Source: Escherichia phage vB_Eco_ZCEC15
Sequence record: PQ871103.1
DNA: 64,000 bases
Strand: one strand, 5' to 3'
This document shows, one piece after another, positions 2,857 to 52,358 of this stretch. The position numbers were made by a program, and so were the translations under genes. The notes beneath the pieces were generated by a model. The model saw only the letters and a list, made by a program, of their open reading frames with translations, searched no databases and was not told the origin of the DNA. Position 1 is the first letter of the stretch; each line of letters begins with the position of its first letter.

Positions 2857-3201
2857 TTAAAAGAATTTAAATTTTTTCTTTGACCTTTTATTAAATGCAT
2901 CTTGTAGTTGCATTGTAATACATTTTTCTACATGAGGAGCTAACTCAGCTTTTCTTTCTTGGTCAAGAACAGCAAAGTCCATTACGACTTTTCCATCAAC
3001 CCAATCTAATTTTGTCACATACACAATGTGTGTAGAACCATCTTCTAGTTTAATGACAATCTCCTGGATAACATTTTCCATGGCAGATTTAATTATCTTA
3101 AGAGATTCATTAAAAAGACGTTCTTTTCTTTCTTCTTCCCCCTCCGAAGAGGGGGATTCATCGATAATTTCTAGATCTAAATCTAAATCATCTTTATTCA
3201 T
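2857..3201 (-). CDS. 40: gp40 head vertex assembly chaperone (likely 114 aa from internal Met)
   Basis: Position between 41 and uvsX; ORF track gives 2857..3219. Confidence 0.65.
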   Translation of the reverse strand: MNKDDLDLDLEIIDESPSSEGEEERKERLFNESLKIIKSAMENVIQEIVIKLEDGSTHIVYVTKLDWVDGKVVMDFAVLDQERKAELAPHVEKCITMQLQDAFNKRSKKKFKFF

Positions 3202-4375
3202 TAAATTCTTCCATATCACTTAACTGATCTAGGTCAGTTTCTAAATCAGCTGCTGATTTACTTTTACTTTCTGGAGATTTAAATTTTTCAACCTTTGAGT
3301 TAATCAACTCATCAACTTCAGCTTCAACAATTTCATTACTATCAATAGCACCTAACTGATAAGCACGTTTAATAGCATCTCGGAATGGCTGATGCTTAAA
3401 TAAAGGACCCCAGAATGTAGTGCAGTTGGTATCTTTTGCACGCCAAGATTTTTCTTCTCGAATCATCTCGCCAGTTTCTTCGTCAAGAAATTCACGAGCA
3501 TACCAACCATTTTTAGGTTTTACCACAAATCCTAATTCAAGAGCCATATCTAACAATCCAGAATAAGGATCGATACCACCGTCAAATTTAACATCAATAA
3601 AGAATTTACTTTTTTCTTTAACGGTACGAGATTTTTCTACATTTAGAACAAATTGATACCCCTGAAGATCAGAACCATCTTTAATCTGGCGCTTACCGAT
3701 AATGAATACAGTATCAGCCGAATACATTACGCCTGTACCACCTGTCATCACGGTTTTACTGAACATTTCAATTGTTTCAATTGTATGGTTAACCGCAACG
3801 CATGGAATGTTTTTAATACTAAAATAAGGAGTAACAATACGGAATAATGACTTCAGTGATTTAGCACGAGTCATATCTGCCACAGATTTTTCATTCAAGG
3901 CATCTTCCGTTTCTTTCTTAGAAGCCATATTACCGATTGAGTCGATGAATACAATAACTTTTTCACCACGCTCAATAGCTTCAAGCTGATTCACCATATC
4001 AATTTTCAGCTGTTCAACTGACTGAATTGGTGTATGAATTACTCGTTCCGGGTCAACTCCCATGGATCGCAAATAAGCTGGAGTAATGCCAAATTCGCTA
4101 TCATAAAATAGACATACCGCGTCAGGATATTTGTTCAAATACGCCGCAACCATAGTCAAAGACATATTTGATTTAAAGTGTTTAGAAGGACCTGCAAAAA
4201 TGGTTAAACCAGACTGCATACCACCATCAATCGCACCAGAAATAGCAATATTAAGCATTGGGATTTTTGTACGGATTACATCCTTTTCATTAAAGAATTT
4301 AGATGTAGTCAGTTCAGCAGTCATTTTAGAAGTGGAAGCTTTAATCAAACGGGATTTTAAATCTGCAATAGACAT
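3194..4375 (-). CDS. uvsX: UvsX recombinase (RecA/Rad51 family), 393 aa
   Basis: Sequence closely resembles T4 UvsX but is not identical at N-terminus. Confidence 0.95.
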   Translation of the reverse strand: MSIADLKSRLIKASTSKMTAELTTSKFFNEKDVIRTKIPMLNIAISGAIDGGMQSGLTIFAGPSKHFKSNMSLTMVAAYLNKYPDAVCLFYDSEFGITPAYLRSMGVDPERVIHTPIQSVEQLKIDMVNQLEAIERGEKVIVFIDSIGNMASKKETEDALNEKSVADMTRAKSLKSLFRIVTPYFSIKNIPCVAVNHTIETIEMFSKTVMTGGTGVMYSADTVFIIGKRQIKDGSDLQGYQFVLNVEKSRTVKEKSKFFIDVKFDGGIDPYSGLLDMALELGFVVKPKNGWYAREFLDEETGEMIREEKSWRAKDTNCTTFWGPLFKHQPFRDAIKRAYQLGAIDSNEIVEAEVDELINSKVEKFKSPESKSKSAADLETDLDQLSDMEEFNE

Positions 4376-4452
4376 TCATTTTTTCCATAGGCATCATTAT
4401 ATTTTCCTCACTGGTTAAAGATAAAGTAATTATAACACAATAAATTTAGGCA

Positions 4453-5295
4453 TTAATCAACTGCTATTGGATGAATAGCATTAAACTTATGAAATGCTTC
4501 TGATTTTTCTTTGCGCGAAACACACATGCGAAGAACCTTTAATGGCTCGTCTTCTTCACCCAACGATTTTCTCTTTTCAATATTCGATGTTTTCCAACGA
4601 GCTTGCTCTGGAAACTCTCTATTGATTTGCTCAAGAGCTCTATTATGTTTTGAATTACTACGAATTGAACTGCACCCGCCCGGAGCCTGTGCTTTTCCAG
4701 ATACAACCAGATATTTGAACAGGGCCAAATGCGGATAACCTTGATTAATTAAATTGAGAAATGCATACATATCTTCGCATAAATCAATTTTTCCATACCC
4801 AATTTGTTCTGTTGTAAGTTTTCCGAGGTCATACCATGTATTCGTGAATCCATATGAATTTTCACGATAATTACCCCAAGATGAAGTAATTTTAAAAATT
4901 GGTAAACGAGCATGACCATGATAATACCCGCAATCCATGGCATCTTCAACGTATTGAATCAATTCATAGAACTGTTCACGAGTTAACTGATTAATTTTAT
5001 CTACGCAGCGACGATCATCTTTCTTTCGCATTGAACTCATACGAATAGTAGTATCATCATCAATCATCCAAATTCGTTGACCTGCATACATATCAGTAAT
5101 TGCTTTACGAGTACCGGCAATTCCGTTTACATCATCAGGAATAGTTATAATTTTAGCTCTAGACCCATAGGCATCATAATAAGCTTTTTCTTCATGTTCA
5201 CGCACTACAATATGGGGTTCATAATCAGTCGGAAACATATCAAGGGCAGAAACTGCCCCGACACGCTGATAACTTGGAATTACGAATTGAATCAT
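4453..5295 (-). CDS. GT-A fold glycosyltransferase, 280 aa (candidate beta-glucosyl-HMC-alpha-glucosyltransferase of T2/T6 type)
   Basis: N-terminal VIPSYQRV and DxD motif IWMIDDD typical of GT-A enzymes; occupies the locus of T4 beta-gt but is unrelated in sequence. Confidence 0.6.
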   Translation of the reverse strand: MIQFVIPSYQRVGAVSALDMFPTDYEPHIVVREHEEKAYYDAYGSRAKIITIPDDVNGIAGTRKAITDMYAGQRIWMIDDDTTIRMSSMRKKDDRRCVDKINQLTREQFYELIQYVEDAMDCGYYHGHARLPIFKITSSWGNYRENSYGFTNTWYDLGKLTTEQIGYGKIDLCEDMYAFLNLINQGYPHLALFKYLVVSGKAQAPGGCSSIRSNSKHNRALEQINREFPEQARWKTSNIEKRKSLGEEDEPLKVLRMCVSRKEKSEAFHKFNAIHPIAVD

Positions 5296-5933
5296 TTAAG
5301 TGCCTTACATTTGTCAAAATGGTATCTTGTCATATTTGGCCCACGTCCTTTTAGTCCGCAATGCGGACATATTTTTTCTATCAAATTATGAGGTTTTCCT
5401 TTACGATTTTTAGACATCGTTTCTTTAATTATTTTAGCTTTTTCTGCGCCAAAAATTTCTTCATAAGTTTTACCAGAATTTTCCTTTGCTCGATTTATAA
5501 TTCCATATGCCTGCTCATTTTTACCATACATTGGATTACCTTCGCCTTTCATTCTTTTAGAATGATCAGGACGCTTGATTCCACGAAAGGCATTTCCGCA
5601 CTTATATCTTTCTTCTGGAGATAGTTTTTTACCGTACATTCCATTTAATTTGCCTGGAAAACTTCCTCCCCATGCTTCATTCTTTAAATTATATGAATCC
5701 GGACAATTAGCAGCATCTAAACAAGTTAAAATAATTTCTTCAACCTGTCTAAACATTGGTCCTTCATATAATATTTCTTTATTAAAGGATTTTATTCCAT
5801 ATTTCTTTTTAGCATGTTGCCAAACTACACCCGAACCATCATAATTTGGGTTGTGACCATCATGACTTCCTATATACCACTTTTTAGTTTTAGGATGTTT
5901 ATACTTATAAACATGTGGCACATTTACTTCCAT
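5292..5933 (-). CDS. GIY-YIG homing endonuclease (seg-like), 213 aa, C-terminal zinc finger
   Basis: VYKY...WYIGS GIY-YIG motif, NUMOD3-like G-K-x-S/P-E repeats, C-terminal CPHCG...RYHFDKC. Confidence 0.75.
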   Translation of the reverse strand: MEVNVPHVYKYKHPKTKKWYIGSHDGHNPNYDGSGVVWQHAKKKYGIKSFNKEILYEGPMFRQVEEIILTCLDAANCPDSYNLKNEAWGGSFPGKLNGMYGKKLSPEERYKCGNAFRGIKRPDHSKRMKGEGNPMYGKNEQAYGIINRAKENSGKTYEEIFGAEKAKIIKETMSKNRKGKPHNLIEKICPHCGLKGRGPNMTRYHFDKCKALK

Positions 5934-6664
5934 TTTCCAGTATAATCCTTTTTAGCAATATGAGTTTCACCAGTGTTCCACCAATGGTCAACTAAATAAA
6001 ACTGATTTTCGTACACATGAAGACTTCCAACGTTCCATATAATAGAACCTGCTTTATATTGCCGCGATGGGTCGCCTGCATTCAAATCAGATACTAATTT
6101 ATCTAGTACGTATTTTTGCCATGCATAATCATTACGATAGCCTGCCCAGCAGTCATTGCTTCTCATATTAACAACTGCATTGACTTTCTTGTCACGAATC
6201 AGATACTGTACGGTATTCGTACACATGAAATCTGACATACCATCTTTATTGTAGTCAAACTGCATAGATGGACGAGTATAAATCATGATACCACGTCGAG
6301 AATCAGGATTTTGACCAAGTTCAGCTAAACACATATCATACTGGGCATAGTTATCTTCTGACCAGATGGCCCAACCATAATTCGAGTTAATTTCGCCTTT
6401 AGAAGATGCTACCTGCTGCCAAATCTTCGGTGTTTCACCCGGAATATCTTTAACAAACAAACTTTTAGATTTATACCATTCAAGTTCACGTTGAATGTAT
6501 TCATCATTAAGAGCGCCAAAAATAAACGGTTCATCTGCTACAAATGATGCGCCAATAATTTCAATAGTTTTAACGCCAGTTTTATCAACTACGAAATCTT
6601 TTTCCTTTAATGCAAGCCCCAAATGAAGACGGATTTCTTCAACTGTCATAGAGTCACTAATCAT
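5924..6664 (-). CDS. 42: dCMP hydroxymethylase gp42, 246 aa
   Basis: Sequence and length match T4 gp42. Confidence 0.95.
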   Translation of the reverse strand: MISDSMTVEEIRLHLGLALKEKDFVVDKTGVKTIEIIGASFVADEPFIFGALNDEYIQRELEWYKSKSLFVKDIPGETPKIWQQVASSKGEINSNYGWAIWSEDNYAQYDMCLAELGQNPDSRRGIMIYTRPSMQFDYNKDGMSDFMCTNTVQYLIRDKKVNAVVNMRSNDCWAGYRNDYAWQKYVLDKLVSDLNAGDPSRQYKAGSIIWNVGSLHVYENQFYLVDHWWNTGETHIAKKDYTGKWK

Positions 6665-6817
6665 TTAAACCTCAATTGATACATTCATATTTAACTTGTA
6701 ACAGTAATAAACCCCAACCTATAATAAGTGTCGGAATCATACAAGGAACCGTTACGCTATAGTATATACTTATTATAATCATCAAGATTAAAAGCAATAC
6801 TGCTAAAATTTTGCTTT

Positions 6818-7069
6818 TCATTCCTTCTCTCTGATGATAATTACTTGATTTGGTTGTGCGGATTTTTTAGTTTCACCCGCAATTGACCAAATAAATGTAA
6901 TAAACCAACCAATAATTGACCAATTAAACAGTAAAGATGTGAAAAAGATTCCTACTGTCGATTTTGACCCGCGCATCAAGGCGATGAACCATGGAAGCAT
7001 GTATATAATAATAGCCAACACGCCTGAAACTAAAACCATAAAAATTGAACCTGCTACTAAAGTTTCCAT
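6818..7069 (-). CDS. imm: Imm superinfection immunity membrane protein, 83 aa
   Basis: Two hydrophobic helices, 83 aa, position downstream of 43. Confidence 0.8.
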   Translation of the reverse strand: METLVAGSIFMVLVSGVLAIIIYMLPWFIALMRGSKSTVGIFFTSLLFNWSIIGWFITFIWSIAGETKKSAQPNQVIIIREKE

Positions 7070-7888: not shown

Positions 7889-10585
7889 TCAGCCAAACAG
7901 GAAGTCTAACGAAGCTTTTTCTTCATAGTCCATGCCAGCCGATTCACACATACCCGCAAGCGGTTTAACAAACGATTTTTGGAACAAAGTTGAGTGGTCA
8001 ATCCAAGATAGCACATCAGAACGAATTTCTTTTGGAAGTTCTGTACCCGATGGCCAAGCAATGCACTTGTCACCAAATGGATTTCCTTCACGTAATGGAA
8101 GAACCATTACTTTATTTCCATCCAAAATTGGAGCTACACCCAGACCACTAACAGCTCGACGATAAGTTAGCACACCGCGAATATGGAACGGGCATTTAAA
8201 TCCTGGCCAACCTTTATCATCATATTTCGCTATATCGTTCGCAGTTTTTACTTCAGCAATAACTTTATAGTCAAGTTGACGATATTCTTTCTCGAAGTTC
8301 TTGTAGTATTCTTGGACAGACTCTTCACCTTCTTGAAGAATACGACGAATACTTTCTTCGAGAGCTTCTTGCACTGCTTTTGGTGTTGAACTCTGCTGAG
8401 TTTCCATACCCATGATTTTTAGATGCGGTTCAGCAAATCGTTTATCTTCCATATCATAAACGTTCAGAGCATAACGCTTTTTCGCTTTCCAAAATCCACC
8501 AACACCCTTTGAACCAAGTGGAGGGCAAGAAATAGCTTCACGGTCCATATGCATCAGATGCTCGCGGTTATTCATATAATCACATAACTCACGATATGCA
8601 ACATCAATCATAGGTTCCATCTTTTTCTTACCGAACTGATTCATGAATTCAACTAAATCGTTCTGCTCTTTGAATCGGTCAAGACCAACTTTTTCAATAA
8701 CTTTATCTACACAAACATATACCGAATCAGTATCACCTGCTGCGATGAAATCTTCACCATTAGTTCCGCATACTTTATTCAGATATTCATTAATTTTACG
8801 AGCAATCCACTGAATACCAACTTGGCCGAAAATTGTGATAGCAGTAGCATTTCGCAAATCATAGTAACGAAAATGAATATTACCAAGAGCACCGTAAAGA
8901 CTGTTAATAAGAATTTTACGGTTCAGCTGATTTGTGTTAGCAAGTGTAGCTGCTTTTTCACATTCTTCAATCAAACTATTGAGAACAGATTCAGTGTAAT
9001 TCGATAGTTCATTTAAGAAATCATCACTGAACTTAACATATCGTTCAACTTCAGGTTTAGTTGAACAAGACCCTGCGCCTTTCATAATAATCTTTTTAAT
9101 AGCTTCGGCATTCATTTCTTCAGCGAACATTTTCTTTTTCCAATCTTTACGCTGGAAAAATACTTTAGCGATTTCCTTTGGAATGATACCTTCTTGATGC
9201 TTATCATACATCCATCCATTCGGAGAACAAGAATATTCATCACTCGGTTTAGGAGCTGTTCCTGCGATATATTCATGAATTGGATGAACTTTAAACTGAC
9301 CACGAATAGTCTCAGGACTAATGTTAACCTGACGAATAATGCTCGGATACAGAGACGTCAAGTCAAAACTCATAATATATCGACGAGCAATTGGTTTAGG
9401 TTCAAATACAAATGCACCCGGAAAACTTTGTTTAACGTGCGAACCTTGTTGAGGAATAACCTTATGTTCACCTTTCAGTGAGTTAAAAATAATAGCGTCC
9501 CAAGTTTTAATAGGACTCATTACACCAGAAAAAGGCATTTTAGCGTAATAAGACATACTTAAAACTAGATCGATAAACCCACGAATTTTATCAATTGCTT
9601 GAACTGATTCTACGTCAATGATGTTATAACTAATGTATCGTTGATGATTAGTCTCACGAAGTTTATTAATAGGACCATCGTACGGCAATTTACCTTTTTT
9701 GGTTTCATGTTGAGCAACTGATTCCAACGAGAACGATGGCAAATTAGTAAATGCGAACTTCTTGTATAAATCTAAATAATCAAGAATAGATACGCCATCA
9801 ATAGAATAAATTTCTTTGCTACCGTACATATTTTGAATTAGTTTAGATTTTACTCGACCGATTGGAGAGAAGCGTTTCATACTACGTTCACCGAGAACCA
9901 TTTTAACGCGATTCATGATATACGGAACGTCAAATCCCTCAATATTCCAACCAGTAAAAATAGCAGGTCGTTTCTGTTCCCAGAGATTGATATATTCCAT
10001 GAGCATATCACGCTCATTATCGAATGGCATATAAATTACTCGGTCAAGAATTTCTTGAGGAACTTCATCACCACCTTCACAGTCAAGCTTAGCAGCTAAC
10101 TTTGCATCCCATTTTGATACTGAACCGTACATTGAATTCAACAAATCAAAGACGTAAAAACGGTCGTCAATTGAATCGTAATGAGTGATAGCATCAATTT
10201 CATATTCTGCTTTCATTGGGTCAGGAAATTTATCACCAGTAACCTCAATGTCGCAGTTAGCTACACGAACAAATTTTCGGTCATAAACAATTTCTGAACC
10301 ATATGTATCACTGATATAAGCGAGTTTAAAATCGTTCATACCGAGAGCTTCGAGACCGATGTCTTCCATTCGCTTCATCCAGTCTCGTGCATCTTTCATT
10401 GATGGAAATTTTTGAGGAGCGCAATTTTTACCATAAATGTCTTTGTATTTTGACTCTTCCTTACAATGCCTAAACATAGTCGGAAGATATTCTACTTCAC
10501 GAGTACGTTCCTTTCCGTTTTCATCAATATAACGTTCAACAATATTATTTCCGACTGTTTCGATAGAGATATAAAATTCTTTCAT
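7889..10585 (-). CDS. 43: DNA polymerase gp43 (family B), 898 aa
   Basis: Near-identical to T4 gp43 over full length as recalled. Confidence 0.98.
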   Translation of the reverse strand: MKEFYISIETVGNNIVERYIDENGKERTREVEYLPTMFRHCKEESKYKDIYGKNCAPQKFPSMKDARDWMKRMEDIGLEALGMNDFKLAYISDTYGSEIVYDRKFVRVANCDIEVTGDKFPDPMKAEYEIDAITHYDSIDDRFYVFDLLNSMYGSVSKWDAKLAAKLDCEGGDEVPQEILDRVIYMPFDNERDMLMEYINLWEQKRPAIFTGWNIEGFDVPYIMNRVKMVLGERSMKRFSPIGRVKSKLIQNMYGSKEIYSIDGVSILDYLDLYKKFAFTNLPSFSLESVAQHETKKGKLPYDGPINKLRETNHQRYISYNIIDVESVQAIDKIRGFIDLVLSMSYYAKMPFSGVMSPIKTWDAIIFNSLKGEHKVIPQQGSHVKQSFPGAFVFEPKPIARRYIMSFDLTSLYPSIIRQVNISPETIRGQFKVHPIHEYIAGTAPKPSDEYSCSPNGWMYDKHQEGIIPKEIAKVFFQRKDWKKKMFAEEMNAEAIKKIIMKGAGSCSTKPEVERYVKFSDDFLNELSNYTESVLNSLIEECEKAATLANTNQLNRKILINSLYGALGNIHFRYYDLRNATAITIFGQVGIQWIARKINEYLNKVCGTNGEDFIAAGDTDSVYVCVDKVIEKVGLDRFKEQNDLVEFMNQFGKKKMEPMIDVAYRELCDYMNNREHLMHMDREAISCPPLGSKGVGGFWKAKKRYALNVYDMEDKRFAEPHLKIMGMETQQSSTPKAVQEALEESIRRILQEGEESVQEYYKNFEKEYRQLDYKVIAEVKTANDIAKYDDKGWPGFKCPFHIRGVLTYRRAVSGLGVAPILDGNKVMVLPLREGNPFGDKCIAWPSGTELPKEIRSDVLSWIDHSTLFQKSFVKPLAGMCESAGMDYEEKASLDFLFG

Positions 10586-13991: not shown

Positions 13992-14708
13992 ATGAATTAT
14001 AAACTAATTTATGAAAAGTTAATCTCTAATGCTAAATCTCGAAAACTTGATTGCTATACTGAATCTCATCACATTATACCACGCTGTTTAAATGGTAGCG
14101 ATGATGCTTCAAACTTAGTAGATTTAACACCAGAAGAGCACTATGTAGCTCATCAACTTTTAGTAAAAATTTATCCTTCTGAACCAAAATTAGTCTATGC
14201 TGCTAACATGATGACAGTTTCTACGAAATACGCTAAACGTAACAATAAAACTTTCGGCTGGATTCGTCGTAAACTCTGGGAAATAGAAAAGAATAAAGAG
14301 TTCTCCCAAGAGACACGAAAGAAAATGTCCGACGCAGTAGCTAATAAAGCAAGACTAACTTGTCCACATTGCGGTAAGTCTGGATTAAGCGGGAATATGA
14401 ATCGATGGCATTTTGATAACTGCCCAAATCATCCCAATCCTAAAGTTAGACCGCCAATGTCTAAAGAACACAGAAATAATATCTCAAACGGACTTAAAGC
14501 AATCGTTCTTGAAGAAACATCCTGCGAATTCTGCGGAATGATAGGCAAGAAATGCGTTATCGCAGCGCATAGAAATTTCTGCAAGAAAAATCCAAATGGA
14601 CGCAAGAAAACTGAAAAGACTGGTACTTGCGTCCATTGTGGTAAAGTTACCACTTTCGGAAATTTATCAAGATGGCATAATGATAATTGTAAATATAAAC
14701 CTAGCTAA
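13992..14708 (+). CDS. HNH homing endonuclease, 238 aa, three C-terminal zinc-finger repeats
   Basis: HNH core ESHHIIPRCLNGSDDASNLVDLTPEEHYVAH; opposite strand to flanking genes; absent from this position in T4 as I recall. Confidence 0.8.
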   Translation: MNYKLIYEKLISNAKSRKLDCYTESHHIIPRCLNGSDDASNLVDLTPEEHYVAHQLLVKIYPSEPKLVYAANMMTVSTKYAKRNNKTFGWIRRKLWEIEKNKEFSQETRKKMSDAVANKARLTCPHCGKSGLSGNMNRWHFDNCPNHPNPKVRPPMSKEHRNNISNGLKAIVLEETSCEFCGMIGKKCVIAAHRNFCKKNPNGRKKTEKTGTCVHCGKVTTFGNLSRWHNDNCKYKPS

Positions 14709-17962: not shown

Positions 17963-18454
17963 TTATACCATTTTTTTACCTTTATTATGTGATGAAGCTT
18001 TAAATTTATTTGACCTTCCTTTTACATAACCTTTTGGAATATAAGGCAAAAAGGCAGATTTTCCTGTTAATGGATCATGTGAATGTATATTTCCTTTACA
18101 ATTATGAGAACCATATAATGGATGATTTTGTCCTTTATTATCTCTTCCAAATGAACCTTTTGGAGCAGCATATGACATATTAAAGAATAATGGATTTTTA
18201 ACTGCATCATGCAATCGTTGATAATATAACTCGCATTTAATAGCTTCTTCACGCGTATCAAATTCAGCTAAAATGCATGAATCAAATAAGTGAGGATTAT
18301 CTGAAAGCTCTTTATTATAAATTTTCTTATACTTTTTAGATAAAACTGAACCATGATATCCAGCTAAATGCCTATCTAAAGACGTAGATCCAATATAAAA
18401 AGGAGGAAGTTTATCTCCACTATATATTGTTAAATAAGTTATATATTTTTTCAT
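17963..18454 (-). CDS. GIY-YIG homing endonuclease-like protein, 163 aa
   Basis: YLTIYSG...FYIGST and FDSCILAEFDTREEAIKCELYYQ resemble the I-TevI catalytic core; NUMOD3-like repeats. Confidence 0.75.
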   Translation of the reverse strand: MKKYITYLTIYSGDKLPPFYIGSTSLDRHLAGYHGSVLSKKYKKIYNKELSDNPHLFDSCILAEFDTREEAIKCELYYQRLHDAVKNPLFFNMSYAAPKGSFGRDNKGQNHPLYGSHNCKGNIHSHDPLTGKSAFLPYIPKGYVKGRSNKFKASSHNKGKKMV

Positions 18455-18614: not shown

Positions 18615-18632
18615 AAAGGGCCGAAGCCCTTT
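18615..18632 (-). repeat. UUCG-tetraloop hairpin (aaagggccgaagcccttt) at a-gt stop codon
   Basis: Inverted repeat with cgaa loop. Confidence 0.5.
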
Positions 18633-19833
18633 ATTTTGTAATAATGTCAAACTGTTCTTTAAAGCAGAAGCTTGAATCTTGATGCTGATACAAAAATTCA
18701 TAAGCTTTTTCGCGTTCACGGTCATAAAGATTTCGGTCAGATGACAGTTCTTTAATACGCTCAAATGTTGATTCCATGTCATTTTCATCAAACCAAACGA
18801 TACCGCTATCATGAGAAATTAACGGAGTATTATCAACACGGAATTTTAAATTTTCGCCAGTAGATTTCCAAAATACTGGAATTGTTCCACACGCACCAAG
18901 CTCGAGATGAGTATATTCTAAAGAACGTTGTAGATATTTTTTATCCAACTTACTCAACTGATAACCAAAACCGGATTTACTCATGCGTTCAAGCATTTCG
19001 CTATTTACATAACGATCAAGAATTTGCGTTGGCAAATTAGGAGCAATTTTAATTTGGTCTACTTGATGAAGACGATAATACTCGTATGGAATTCCTTTTT
19101 CTTTAATAGGAATGAACGCTGGAGAACGTTCCAGACCTTCCATAATAGTACTTAGTCCTGCAGGTTTAAGATGTTTTTCGTGAAAATCAAACATCTGATA
19201 AAAACCTTTCCATGTAGTCGTACGACCAATCCAACGGTTAACATTCATGTTAATTTCAGAAACATCTTTCCAGTAGGTTGACCGAACCTTCGCAATATCC
19301 ATAGGAGGCTGAAAGTTATATACTGTCGGTGCTTCTTCAATATCATCAAACAGAGAAACAGTTTCTGGATACCATTCTTTCATCAGAACTTTATTAAAAT
19401 CACCATTATCAGAATGACTAAAAATAACATCAGCTCGACGAACAGTTTCTTCTAATCCCAAATTTCGACGCAAAGAAAGAGAAGAATGGTCATGTTGATA
19501 AACTACAACACGAACAGAAGGTTTAATGTTATCAATAATTTTTTTATAGTTATTAATAGTGTCTTCTTCAACCGAAGTAGCAGGAACTGAATTGATAATT
19601 AGAATATCACAATCATTTACCAGCTTAAGTGTTTTATCATATTCTTTTGCCAATAAAACCGGAATTGAAAATGATTTATAATCATGCGCGCAATTACGAG
19701 TAAATGATTTATCTTTAGCATAAACCAAAGTTACTTCATGACCATTCTTAATAAACCAATCACGTTGCTCAAGAGAAAATTTAGTTACACCACAACCTTC
19801 AAGACCTCGAGCCATAAAAATACATACTTTCAT
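18631..19833 (-). CDS. a-gt: alpha-glucosyltransferase (a-gt), 400 aa
   Basis: N-terminus and length match T4 alpha-gt. Confidence 0.95.
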   Translation of the reverse strand: MKVCIFMARGLEGCGVTKFSLEQRDWFIKNGHEVTLVYAKDKSFTRNCAHDYKSFSIPVLLAKEYDKTLKLVNDCDILIINSVPATSVEEDTINNYKKIIDNIKPSVRVVVYQHDHSSLSLRRNLGLEETVRRADVIFSHSDNGDFNKVLMKEWYPETVSLFDDIEEAPTVYNFQPPMDIAKVRSTYWKDVSEINMNVNRWIGRTTTWKGFYQMFDFHEKHLKPAGLSTIMEGLERSPAFIPIKEKGIPYEYYRLHQVDQIKIAPNLPTQILDRYVNSEMLERMSKSGFGYQLSKLDKKYLQRSLEYTHLELGACGTIPVFWKSTGENLKFRVDNTPLISHDSGIVWFDENDMESTFERIKELSSDRNLYDREREKAYEFLYQHQDSSFCFKEQFDIITK

Positions 19834-51692: not shown

Positions 51693-52358
51693 TTAAAATT
51701 TCATTTTTCTACCTTTAAACCATCCTTCTGGAATTGGGTCAGTTTTCTTAATACGTTTAGAAACTTTTTCATCTAATGAATGAATCCACATCATACCAAA
51801 TTGGGAATTCTTTTCACCTTGTTGGTGTTTATTTTTGGCGTGAGATTCTTTCATTTTATTAATAGTTTCAGGAGTATGATGCTTATTTAAAAATCTGCTA
51901 TTATTTAAAAATTTTTCCCTGTATTCAGGAGTTGACCACAAACGTTTAAATACATTTGAACCATGTTTACGATATTTTTCTTGAAGTAAAATATCATTTT
52001 TAAAACGTGACTTAAACGATTTAGCTCCTTTTAAACTAGCGTCTTTCTTCTGATTTAGCATCTCAGGAATATTTATATGGTCCCATCCACCTTCACCACC
52101 AAGTTTTAAATTATACACATCTGGTCTATTTAAAAACTCTTCTGTGACAATATTTTTCTCGGCTTCAAGCATAGATTCTTTATCATCAAAATACTCTAAT
52201 ATTTCTTTAGAGAAATTTTCTATACCATACTTGTCTTGGGCTCTTTTTAATAATTTACCAGAACCCATATATCCATCATCTAAATTTTCGGTAGAATGCA
52301 CACCAATATAAATTTTATTATTAATTTTATTTGTTATTTTATAAGTGTAATGGAACAT
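51693..52358 (-). CDS. segB: GIY-YIG homing endonuclease SegB, 221 aa
   Basis: YTYKITNKINNKIYIGVHS motif; sits between tRNA subclusters as in T4. Confidence 0.85.
   Translation of the reverse strand: MFHYTYKITNKINNKIYIGVHSTENLDDGYMGSGKLLKRAQDKYGIENFSKEILEYFDDKESMLEAEKNIVTEEFLNRPDVYNLKLGGEGGWDHINIPEMLNQKKDASLKGAKSFKSRFKNDILLQEKYRKHGSNVFKRLWSTPEYREKFLNNSRFLNKHHTPETINKMKESHAKNKHQQGEKNSQFGMMWIHSLDEKVSKRIKKTDPIPEGWFKGRKMKF

What the first reader, a model, noticed from the sequence alone, without database searches (positions are those of the whole stretch)
4453..5295. GT-A type glycosyltransferase replaces the T4 beta-glucosyltransferase
At the locus where T4 encodes the 351-aa GT-B fold beta-gt, this phage encodes a 280-aa protein with GT-A features (DxD motif, N-terminal IPSYQR). 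The alpha-gt gene is retained. This predicts a different HMC glycosylation pattern, possibly the T2/T6-type gentiobiosyl modification, with consequences for sensitivity to host restriction.
Basis: partly seen in the sequence, partly recalled or inferred. Interest (0 to 1): 0.55.

Follow-up and report, generated by a model that had tools for sequence, protein, structure and literature searches.

The report
T2/T6-type second glucosyltransferase of T-even phage
This gene is the long-known T2/T6-type enzyme that adds a second glucose to already glucosylated phage DNA; it is the usual arrangement in T4-like coliphages, so the finding is correct but ordinary.

Summary
Window 4453-5295 (- strand) is a 280-aa ORF between uvsX and gene 42, in the slot where T4 has beta-gt. 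It has IPSYQR at residues 6-11 and DDD at 79-81. It shows no similarity to T4 beta-gt, and an alpha-gt gene 91% identical to T4's is retained at 18631-19833.

The protein is 98-99% identical to the beta-glucosyl-HMC-alpha-glucosyltransferases (ba-gt/ggt) of T2 and T6, and 100% identical to annotated proteins of two other phages. It matches Pfam PF20691 (TAGT) and PHROG 842. An AlphaFold model matches GT-A/GT2-type transferases.

The most likely mechanism is that alpha-gt puts alpha-glucose on 5-hmC, and this inverting GT-A enzyme then adds a beta-1,6 glucose from UDP-glucose, giving gentiobiosyl-hmC. About a quarter to a third of hmC would stay bare. A phage whose enzyme is 98.9% identical (QOTSP) has about two-thirds gentiobiosyl-hmC by published HPLC/MS.

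Nothing here is new. 471 phage records carry a copy at 95% identity or more. A 2026 survey found alpha-GT or beta-GT plus TAGT to be the common state and T4's alpha+beta pair the rarity (6 of 753 genomes). The extent of the second glucosylation, T2-like 5% or T6-like 72%, cannot be read from the sequence. Interest is low.

The parts
4453..5295 (-). ba-gt / ggt: glucosyl-DNA beta-glucosyltransferase ('beta-glucosyl-HMC-alpha-glucosyltransferase', Pfam TAGT), 280 aa, GT-A fold, DDD at residues 79-81
   Evidence: ORF. PF20691 at 1.2e-9 and 38.8 bits against a cutoff of 27.5. PHROG 842 at 5.6e-89. 100% identical to the GEP001 and UFV06 proteins, 98.6% to T2, 98% to T6. GT-A structural matches.
18631..19833 (-). 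alpha-gt: DNA alpha-glucosyltransferase (GT-B), which makes the alpha-glucosyl-hmC acceptor for ba-gt
   Evidence: PF11440 at 1.6e-235. 91% identity to T4 alpha-gt over 400 aa.
5924..6664 (-). Gene 42, dCMP hydroxymethylase, which supplies hm-dCMP for hmC DNA
   Evidence: PF00303 at 7.3e-15. About 91% DNA identity to gene 42 of T4, T2 and T6.
5292..5933 (-). Seg-like GIY-YIG homing endonuclease ORF (213 aa) inserted exactly between gene 42 and ba-gt. It is not part of the glucosylation pathway but belongs to this locus's anatomy. Its stop overlaps the ba-gt start (ATGA).
   Evidence: PHROG 314 at 1.8e-31. 37% identity to the N-terminal part of T4 SegA. Window 5298-5927 has no counterpart in T2 or T6.

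Best explanation
The ORF encodes the T2/T6-type glucosyl-DNA beta-glucosyltransferase, known as ba-gt, ggt, 'beta-glucosyl-HMC-alpha-glucosyltransferase' or Pfam TAGT. By my recollection its EC number is 2.4.1.28. The proposed pathway has three steps. Gene 42 makes hm-dCMP, so the phage DNA carries 5-hmC in place of C. The retained alpha-gt transfers glucose from UDP-glucose in alpha linkage to part of the hmC residues. This GT-A enzyme then adds a second glucose in beta-1,6 linkage onto the alpha-glucose, giving gentiobiosyl-hmC. I infer that D79-D81 bind the divalent metal and the UDP diphosphate, and that catalysis is inverting as in GT2 enzymes. The invariant D175, preceded by the nearly invariant E174, in the LCED stretch is a plausible catalytic base. 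With no beta-gt, the hmC sites that alpha-gt cannot reach stay unglucosylated, about 25-33% in relatives. What is shown here is the identity of the gene, its fold, the presence of the partner genes, and the absence of beta-gt from the window. What is taken from experiments on near-identical orthologues is the reaction and the product. What is my inference is the roles of individual residues.
For: Identity to characterised enzymes:
- 99% identical to the T2 enzyme and 98% to the T6 enzyme.
- Identical to proteins annotated as this enzyme in GEP001.
- PHROG 842 at 5.6e-89 and PF20691 above its gathering score.

Fold:
- The DDD motif is invariant in homologues.

Partner genes:
- alpha-gt and gene 42 are present.
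- T4 beta-gt has no hit in the window.

Experiments in the literature:
- T6 with ba-gt deleted is described as carrying only alpha-glucosyl-hmC; the paper states the proportion (75%) as presumed (PMC11078745).
- Phage QOTSP, whose enzyme is 98.9% identical (H13), has about 1/3 5-hmdC, about 2/3 alpha-gentiobiosyl-mdC, and no beta-glucosyl form by HPLC/MS. Its TAGT sits at the position syntenic with T4 beta-GT (PMC13390438).
- An AF3 model of the T6 TAGT was classified as GT-A, sister to GT2 (PMC13216743).
Against: - No direct evidence exists for this particular phage's DNA.
- The model has low confidence in three loops (residues 87-100, 130-149, 194-210), and no solved structure of the family exists, so residue roles are unverified.
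- The protein has two substitutions, K92 and I101, not seen in T2, T6 or QOTSP. They are conservative and are shared with other phage records that hold an identical protein.
- Only 64 kb of a roughly 168-kb genome was seen, so a beta-gt elsewhere cannot be excluded from sequence alone. [quoted passage not shown]
Confidence: 0.95

Rival explanations
1. The gene is intact, but this phage has a T2-like pattern in which the enzyme modifies only a few percent of sites. The DNA would then be essentially alpha-monoglucosylated and the second transferase would have little effect on restriction sensitivity.
For: T2 and T6 enzymes are about 98% identical, yet T2 DNA has about 5% gentiobiosyl-hmC and T6 about 72% (PMC6024577; PMC11078745). 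At the three positions where T6 differs from T2 (40, 55, 106), the window has the T2 residues Y40, D55 and R106.
Against: QOTSP also has Y40, D55 and R106, yet about two-thirds of its cytosines are gentiobiosylated (PMC13390438). These positions therefore do not determine the extent. All ten Durham Tequatroviruses measured there had substantial gentiobiosyl-hmC (about 40% or about 67%). At position 251 the window has P like T6 and QOTSP, where T2 has S.
Confidence: 0.2
2. The enzyme uses a different donor sugar or acts directly on hmC, as a solitary TAGT might, rather than adding the second glucose.
For: The TAGT family is diverse. Many phages carry TAGT homologues without alpha- or beta-GT, and homologues at about 65% identity occur in Klebsiella, Enterobacter, Citrobacter and Salmonella phages of uncharacterised chemistry (PMC13216743).
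Against: At 98-100% identity to the T2, T6 and QOTSP enzymes, with alpha-gt present, a change of specificity is very unlikely.
Confidence: 0.02
3. It is a diverged homologue of T4 beta-gt (GT-B) that makes beta-glucosyl-hmC.
For: Only the shared genomic position.
Against: There is no sequence similarity (E=3.4). The structural matches listed in both searches are nucleotide-diphospho-sugar (GT-A-type) transferases, and neither T4 glucosyltransferase appears among them. Relatives carrying this gene lack beta-glucosyl-hmC (PMC13390438).
Confidence: 0.01

Closest known systems
Beta-glucosyl-HMC-alpha-glucosyltransferase (ba-gt / ggt) of phages T2 and T6. To my recollection the genes were sequenced by Winkler and Rueger in 1993. 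Gentiobiose in T6 DNA was reported by Kuno and Lehman in 1962, as cited in PMC13216743.
   Same: Length of 280 aa, 98-99% identity, the same position downstream of gene 42 and upstream of uvsX, and the same partner alpha-gt.
   Different: There are only a few conservative substitutions: R11 (H in T2), K92 and I101. In addition, a seg-like homing endonuclease gene is inserted between gene 42 and this gene; T2 and T6 lack it.
Pfam PF20691 TAGT (TET-associated glycosyltransferase), GT-A fold, close to CAZy GT2
   Same: The match is full-length (residues 3-207 to profile positions 2-205 of 205) and above the gathering score. The structural neighbours have the GT-A fold.
   Different: The phage T-even branch is a distant member of the profile (38.8 bits). 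It works with a 5-hmC-synthesising thymidylate-synthase homologue rather than a TET/JBP oxygenase.
T4 beta-glucosyltransferase (GT-B, PF09198, CAZy GT63 by my recollection)
   Same: It occupies the same genomic slot, uses UDP-glucose, makes a beta linkage, and acts on hmC DNA.
   Different: The fold is unrelated and there is no sequence similarity. The acceptor is hmC itself rather than alpha-glucosyl-hmC, and the product is a monoglucoside.

Membership tests
T2/T6 ba-gt (glucosyl-DNA beta-glucosyltransferase) | Close full-length sequence similarity to the T2 and T6 enzymes | tested here: met
   99% identity to T2 over 280 aa, and 98% to T6 over the 261 aa annotated in that record. PHROG 842 at 5.6e-89.
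T2/T6 ba-gt (glucosyl-DNA beta-glucosyltransferase) | Genomic context: the uvsX to gene 42 interval of a Tequatrovirus that makes hmC, with alpha-gt present to supply the acceptor | tested here: met
   uvsX, gene 42 and alpha-gt were all identified in the window. The layout matches T2 and T6 apart from the inserted seg-like ORF.
T2/T6 ba-gt (glucosyl-DNA beta-glucosyltransferase) | Catalytic activity: transfer of beta-1,6 glucose from UDP-glucose onto alpha-glucosyl-hmC in DNA, giving a gentiobiosyl-hmC product | not testable with these tools
   Inferred from experiments on orthologues. T6 with ba-gt deleted is described as carrying only alpha-glucosyl-hmC (PMC11078745). QOTSP, with a 98.9% identical enzyme, has about 2/3 gentiobiosyl-mdC (PMC13390438).
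GT-A fold glycosyltransferases / Pfam TAGT PF20691 | Score above the Pfam gathering threshold | tested here: met
   38.8 bits against a cutoff of 27.5, E=1.2e-9, over the full profile length.
GT-A fold glycosyltransferases / Pfam TAGT PF20691 | Single Rossmann-like nucleotide-diphospho-sugar transferase fold | tested here: met
GT-A fold glycosyltransferases / Pfam TAGT PF20691 | DxD metal and nucleotide-sugar binding motif at the end of a core beta-strand | tested here: met
   D79-D80-D81 directly follow the predicted strand at residues 74-79 and are invariant in all 10 homologues aligned. Metal binding itself was not tested.
T4 beta-gt (GT-B, PF09198) | Sequence or fold similarity to T4 beta-gt | tested here: not met
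   BLASTP best E=3.4, no Pfam PF09198 hit, and GT-A rather than GT-B structural neighbours.

The most novel reading that the evidence does not exclude
The most novel reading that remains concerns T4 rather than this gene. T4 keeps a 24-of-25-nt relic of the 3' end of ba-gt (reading HRIAVD-stop against HPIAVD-stop) between beta-gt and segA. This suggests that the T4 lineage once carried ba-gt in this slot and that beta-gt displaced it, possibly in a homing-endonuclease-associated exchange. The locus would then be a hot spot where seg-type endonucleases drive swaps of DNA-glycosylation genes. For the window itself, the only open question is whether the private K92 and I101 substitutions or the inserted seg ORF (through translational coupling) alter the extent of gentiobiosylation.
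Probability: 0.3. Interest if true: 0.3.

Novelty: already known. Interest (0 to 1): 0.08.

Why it matters
The sugar pattern on hmC decides which host defences can attack a T-even phage. The published examples are these:
- Gentiobiosyl-hmC resists the Brig1 glycosylase in vitro.
- It also resists the BapA deglucosylase.
- The roughly 25-33% of hmC left bare is a target for hmC-specific enzymes such as Brig3 and McrBC-type systems.
- GmrSD-type enzymes still cut gentiobiosylated DNA.

These points come from PMC11078745, bioRxiv 10.64898/2026.02.25.707755 and PMC13216743. Knowing that this phage has the alpha-gt plus ba-gt genotype is therefore useful for predicting host range and for phage-therapy cocktails. 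It is routine annotation and not a discovery.

Tried and rejected
- A sequence search of the PDB found no solved relative (best E=0.76), so fold assignment needed a model.
- Single-sequence AlphaFold gave an unusable model (pLDDT 39.7). I replaced it with a run on a 10-sequence alignment.
- The large protein-database search returned only 11 clusters, so the alignment is shallow.
- The promoter and terminator scan of 4300-6900 found no more sites than shuffled sequence (13 promoter-like sites against 12.3 expected) and was not informative.
- I tried to predict a T2-like or T6-like extent of gentiobiosylation from the variable residues. This failed, because QOTSP shares the T2-type residues yet has a T6-type pattern (with PMC13390438).
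- The reading that this is a diverged beta-gt was rejected.

Full report
**What is there.** Window 4453-5295 on the - strand holds a clean 280-aa ORF starting MIQFVIPSYQRVGAVSALDMF. IPSYQR occupies residues 6-11, and an Asp triplet (WMIDDDT) occupies residues 79-81.

The gene order on the - strand is typical of a T-even phage:
- gene 41 helicase (1420-2847)
- gene 40 (2857-3219)
- uvsX (3194-4375)
- this ORF (4453-5295)
- a 213-aa GIY-YIG seg-like ORF (5292-5933)
- gene 42, dCMP hydroxymethylase (5924-6664)
- imm-region ORFs
- gene 43, DNA polymerase (7889-10585)

In T4 (NC_000866) the same interval reads uvsX, segA, b-gt (351 aa), 42.

**Retained alpha-gt and absent beta-gt.** Window 18631-19833 (-) encodes a 400-aa protein. 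It matches Pfam PF11440 (DNA alpha-glucosyltransferase) at E=1.6e-235 and is 362/400 identical to T4 alpha-gt. T4 beta-gt finds nothing in the window by tblastn even at E<=10. BLASTP of the 280-aa protein against T4 beta-gt gives only noise, with a best E of 3.4.

**Identity of the protein.**
- Pfam gives PF20691 (TAGT, TET-associated glycosyltransferase) at 1.2e-9 and 38.8 bits against a gathering score of 27.5, over the whole profile.
- PHROGs gives family 842, 'beta-glucosyl-HMC-alpha-glucosyltransferase', at 5.6e-89.
- tblastn against 50,697 phage records finds 689 records. Of these, 177 are at >=99% and 294 at 95-99% identity.
- The protein is 100% identical to annotated proteins of Escherichia phages GEP001 and vB_EcoM-UFV06 and 98.6% identical to the T2 protein. 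It is 98% identical to the T6 protein over the part annotated in that record.
- A second group at about 64-66% identity occurs in Klebsiella, Enterobacter, Citrobacter and Salmonella T4-like phages.
- The surrounding 5 kb is 97-98% identical to many Tequatrovirus genomes.

**Fold.** No solved structure is detectable by sequence. A single-sequence AlphaFold run was useless, with pLDDT 39.7. With a 10-sequence alignment of homologues down to 32% identity, the model reached pLDDT 70.9 and pTM 0.75. Three loops remain poorly predicted.

**Mechanism.** The function has been established experimentally for orthologues that differ by three or four residues.
- In T2 and T6, alpha-GT glucosylates hmC. 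The ba-gt enzyme then adds a second glucose in beta-1,6 linkage to the alpha-glucose, giving gentiobiosyl-hmC (PMC6024577; PMC13216743).
- T6 with ba-gt deleted is described as carrying only alpha-glucosyl-hmC and is more sensitive to the Brig1 glycosylase (PMC11078745).
- Phage vB_Eco_QOTSP has an enzyme 98.9% identical to the window's (H13; alignment). By HPLC/MS it contains about one-third 5-hmdC, about two-thirds alpha-gentiobiosyl-mdC, a trace of alpha-glucosyl-mdC and no beta-glucosyl form.
- That paper explicitly notes a TAGT at the position syntenic with T4 beta-GT (PMC13390438).

Making a beta linkage from UDP-alpha-glucose fits an inverting GT2-like GT-A enzyme; that is an inference from family knowledge. 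The predicted DNA of this phage therefore carries bare hmC, alpha-glucosyl-hmC and gentiobiosyl-hmC, and no beta-glucosyl-hmC.

**What cannot be predicted.** T2 (about 5% gentiobiosyl) and T6 (about 72%) have nearly identical enzymes. The window shares Y40, D55 and R106 with T2 and P251 with T6. QOTSP has the same residues at these four positions and shows the T6-type high level (PMC13390438). The extent of the second glucosylation therefore cannot be read from these residues. K92 and I101 are private to the window's allele among the four sequences compared.

**Comparison with what is known, and novelty.** This is the enzyme itself and not a relative of it. It passes every membership test that can be run on sequence: identity, context, Pfam threshold, fold and DxD motif.

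The word 'replaces' is T4-centric. A 2026 survey found that phages typically carry alpha-GT or beta-GT alone or with a TAGT, and that only 6 of 753 genomes carry alpha-GT plus beta-GT as T4 does (PMC13216743).

**Consequences for restriction, from the literature.**
- Gentiobiosyl-hmC resists Brig1 in vitro (PMC11078745).
- It also resists the BapA deglucosylase (bioRxiv 10.64898/2026.02.25.707755).
- GmrSD still targets it (PMC13216743).
- The bare hmC fraction is a substrate for hmC-specific enzymes such as Brig3.

**Side observations.**
- *Seg-like insertion.* The seg-like ORF at 5292-5933 is a precise insertion between gene 42 and ba-gt. Window 5298-5927 has no counterpart in T2 or T6, where the gene 42 stop overlaps the ba-gt start. 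Copies at >=95% identity occur in 77 phage records, against 471 with ba-gt at that level. The insertion is absent from GEP001 and QOTSP.
- *T4 relic.* T4 retains a 24-of-25-nt copy of the last codons and stop of ba-gt just upstream of segA. BLAST gives E=3e-6, and it translates HRIAVD** against HPIAVD*. This hints that ba-gt was the ancestral occupant of the slot in the T4 lineage.
- *T6 stop codon.* The T6 record MH550421 has TAG at codon 10 of ggt and is annotated from M20.
- *Other endonuclease ORFs.* Three further homing-endonuclease-like ORFs lie at 13992-14708 (+), 17963-18454 (-) and 51693-52358 (-).

Noticed in passing
window 5292-5933 (-): A 213-aa GIY-YIG seg-like homing endonuclease ORF (PHROG 314 at 1.8e-31; 37% identical to the N-terminal part of T4 SegA) is inserted exactly between gene 42 and ba-gt. 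Stop and start codons overlap on both sides. It is absent at this site in T2, T6, GEP001 and QOTSP. Copies at >=95% identity occur in 77 phage records, and one record labels it segD.
   Followed up: partly
L001 (T4 NC_000866) 4239-4263, between b-gt and segA: T4 carries a 24-of-25-nt match to the last codons plus stop of ba-gt (window 4451-4475). It reads HRIAVD** against HPIAVD*. The downstream element TTTATCTTTAACC (window 4413-4425) also recurs in T4, but on the other side of the relic, at L001 4361-4373. This suggests that the T4 lineage once had ba-gt in this slot and that the region was later rearranged.
   Followed up: partly
L003 (T6 MH550421) about 3951-3953, codon 10 of ggt: The deposited T6 genome has TAG in place of the Gln-10 codon (MIQFVIPSY*RVG), and the gene is annotated from Met-20, which would remove the first beta-strand of the fold. 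This may be a stock-specific amber mutation or a sequencing error. It is odd for the phage known for about 72% gentiobiosylation.
   Followed up: no
window 17963-18454 (-): A 163-aa GIY-YIG-type endonuclease ORF (PF01541 exactly at threshold; PHROG 10820 at 1.6e-79) lies between gene 47 and alpha-gt, where T4 has only the small 47.1 ORF.
   Followed up: no
window 13992-14708 (+): A 238-aa homing-endonuclease-like ORF (PHROG 655 at 8.6e-69) lies on the opposite strand to all its neighbours, in the rpbA/45.2 to gene 46 interval. T4 has no such gene there.
   Followed up: no
window 51693-52358 (-): A 221-aa ORF whose N-terminal part is 56% identical to T4 SegA residues 9-98. It is another seg-family gene elsewhere in the window.
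   Followed up: no
homologues of window 4453-5295 in other phages: A distinct group of about 200 records (Klebsiella, Enterobacter, Citrobacter, Salmonella and Serratia T4-like phages) carries a homologue at 60-80% identity in the same slot next to gene 42. Their sugar chemistry is mostly uncharacterised.
   Followed up: no
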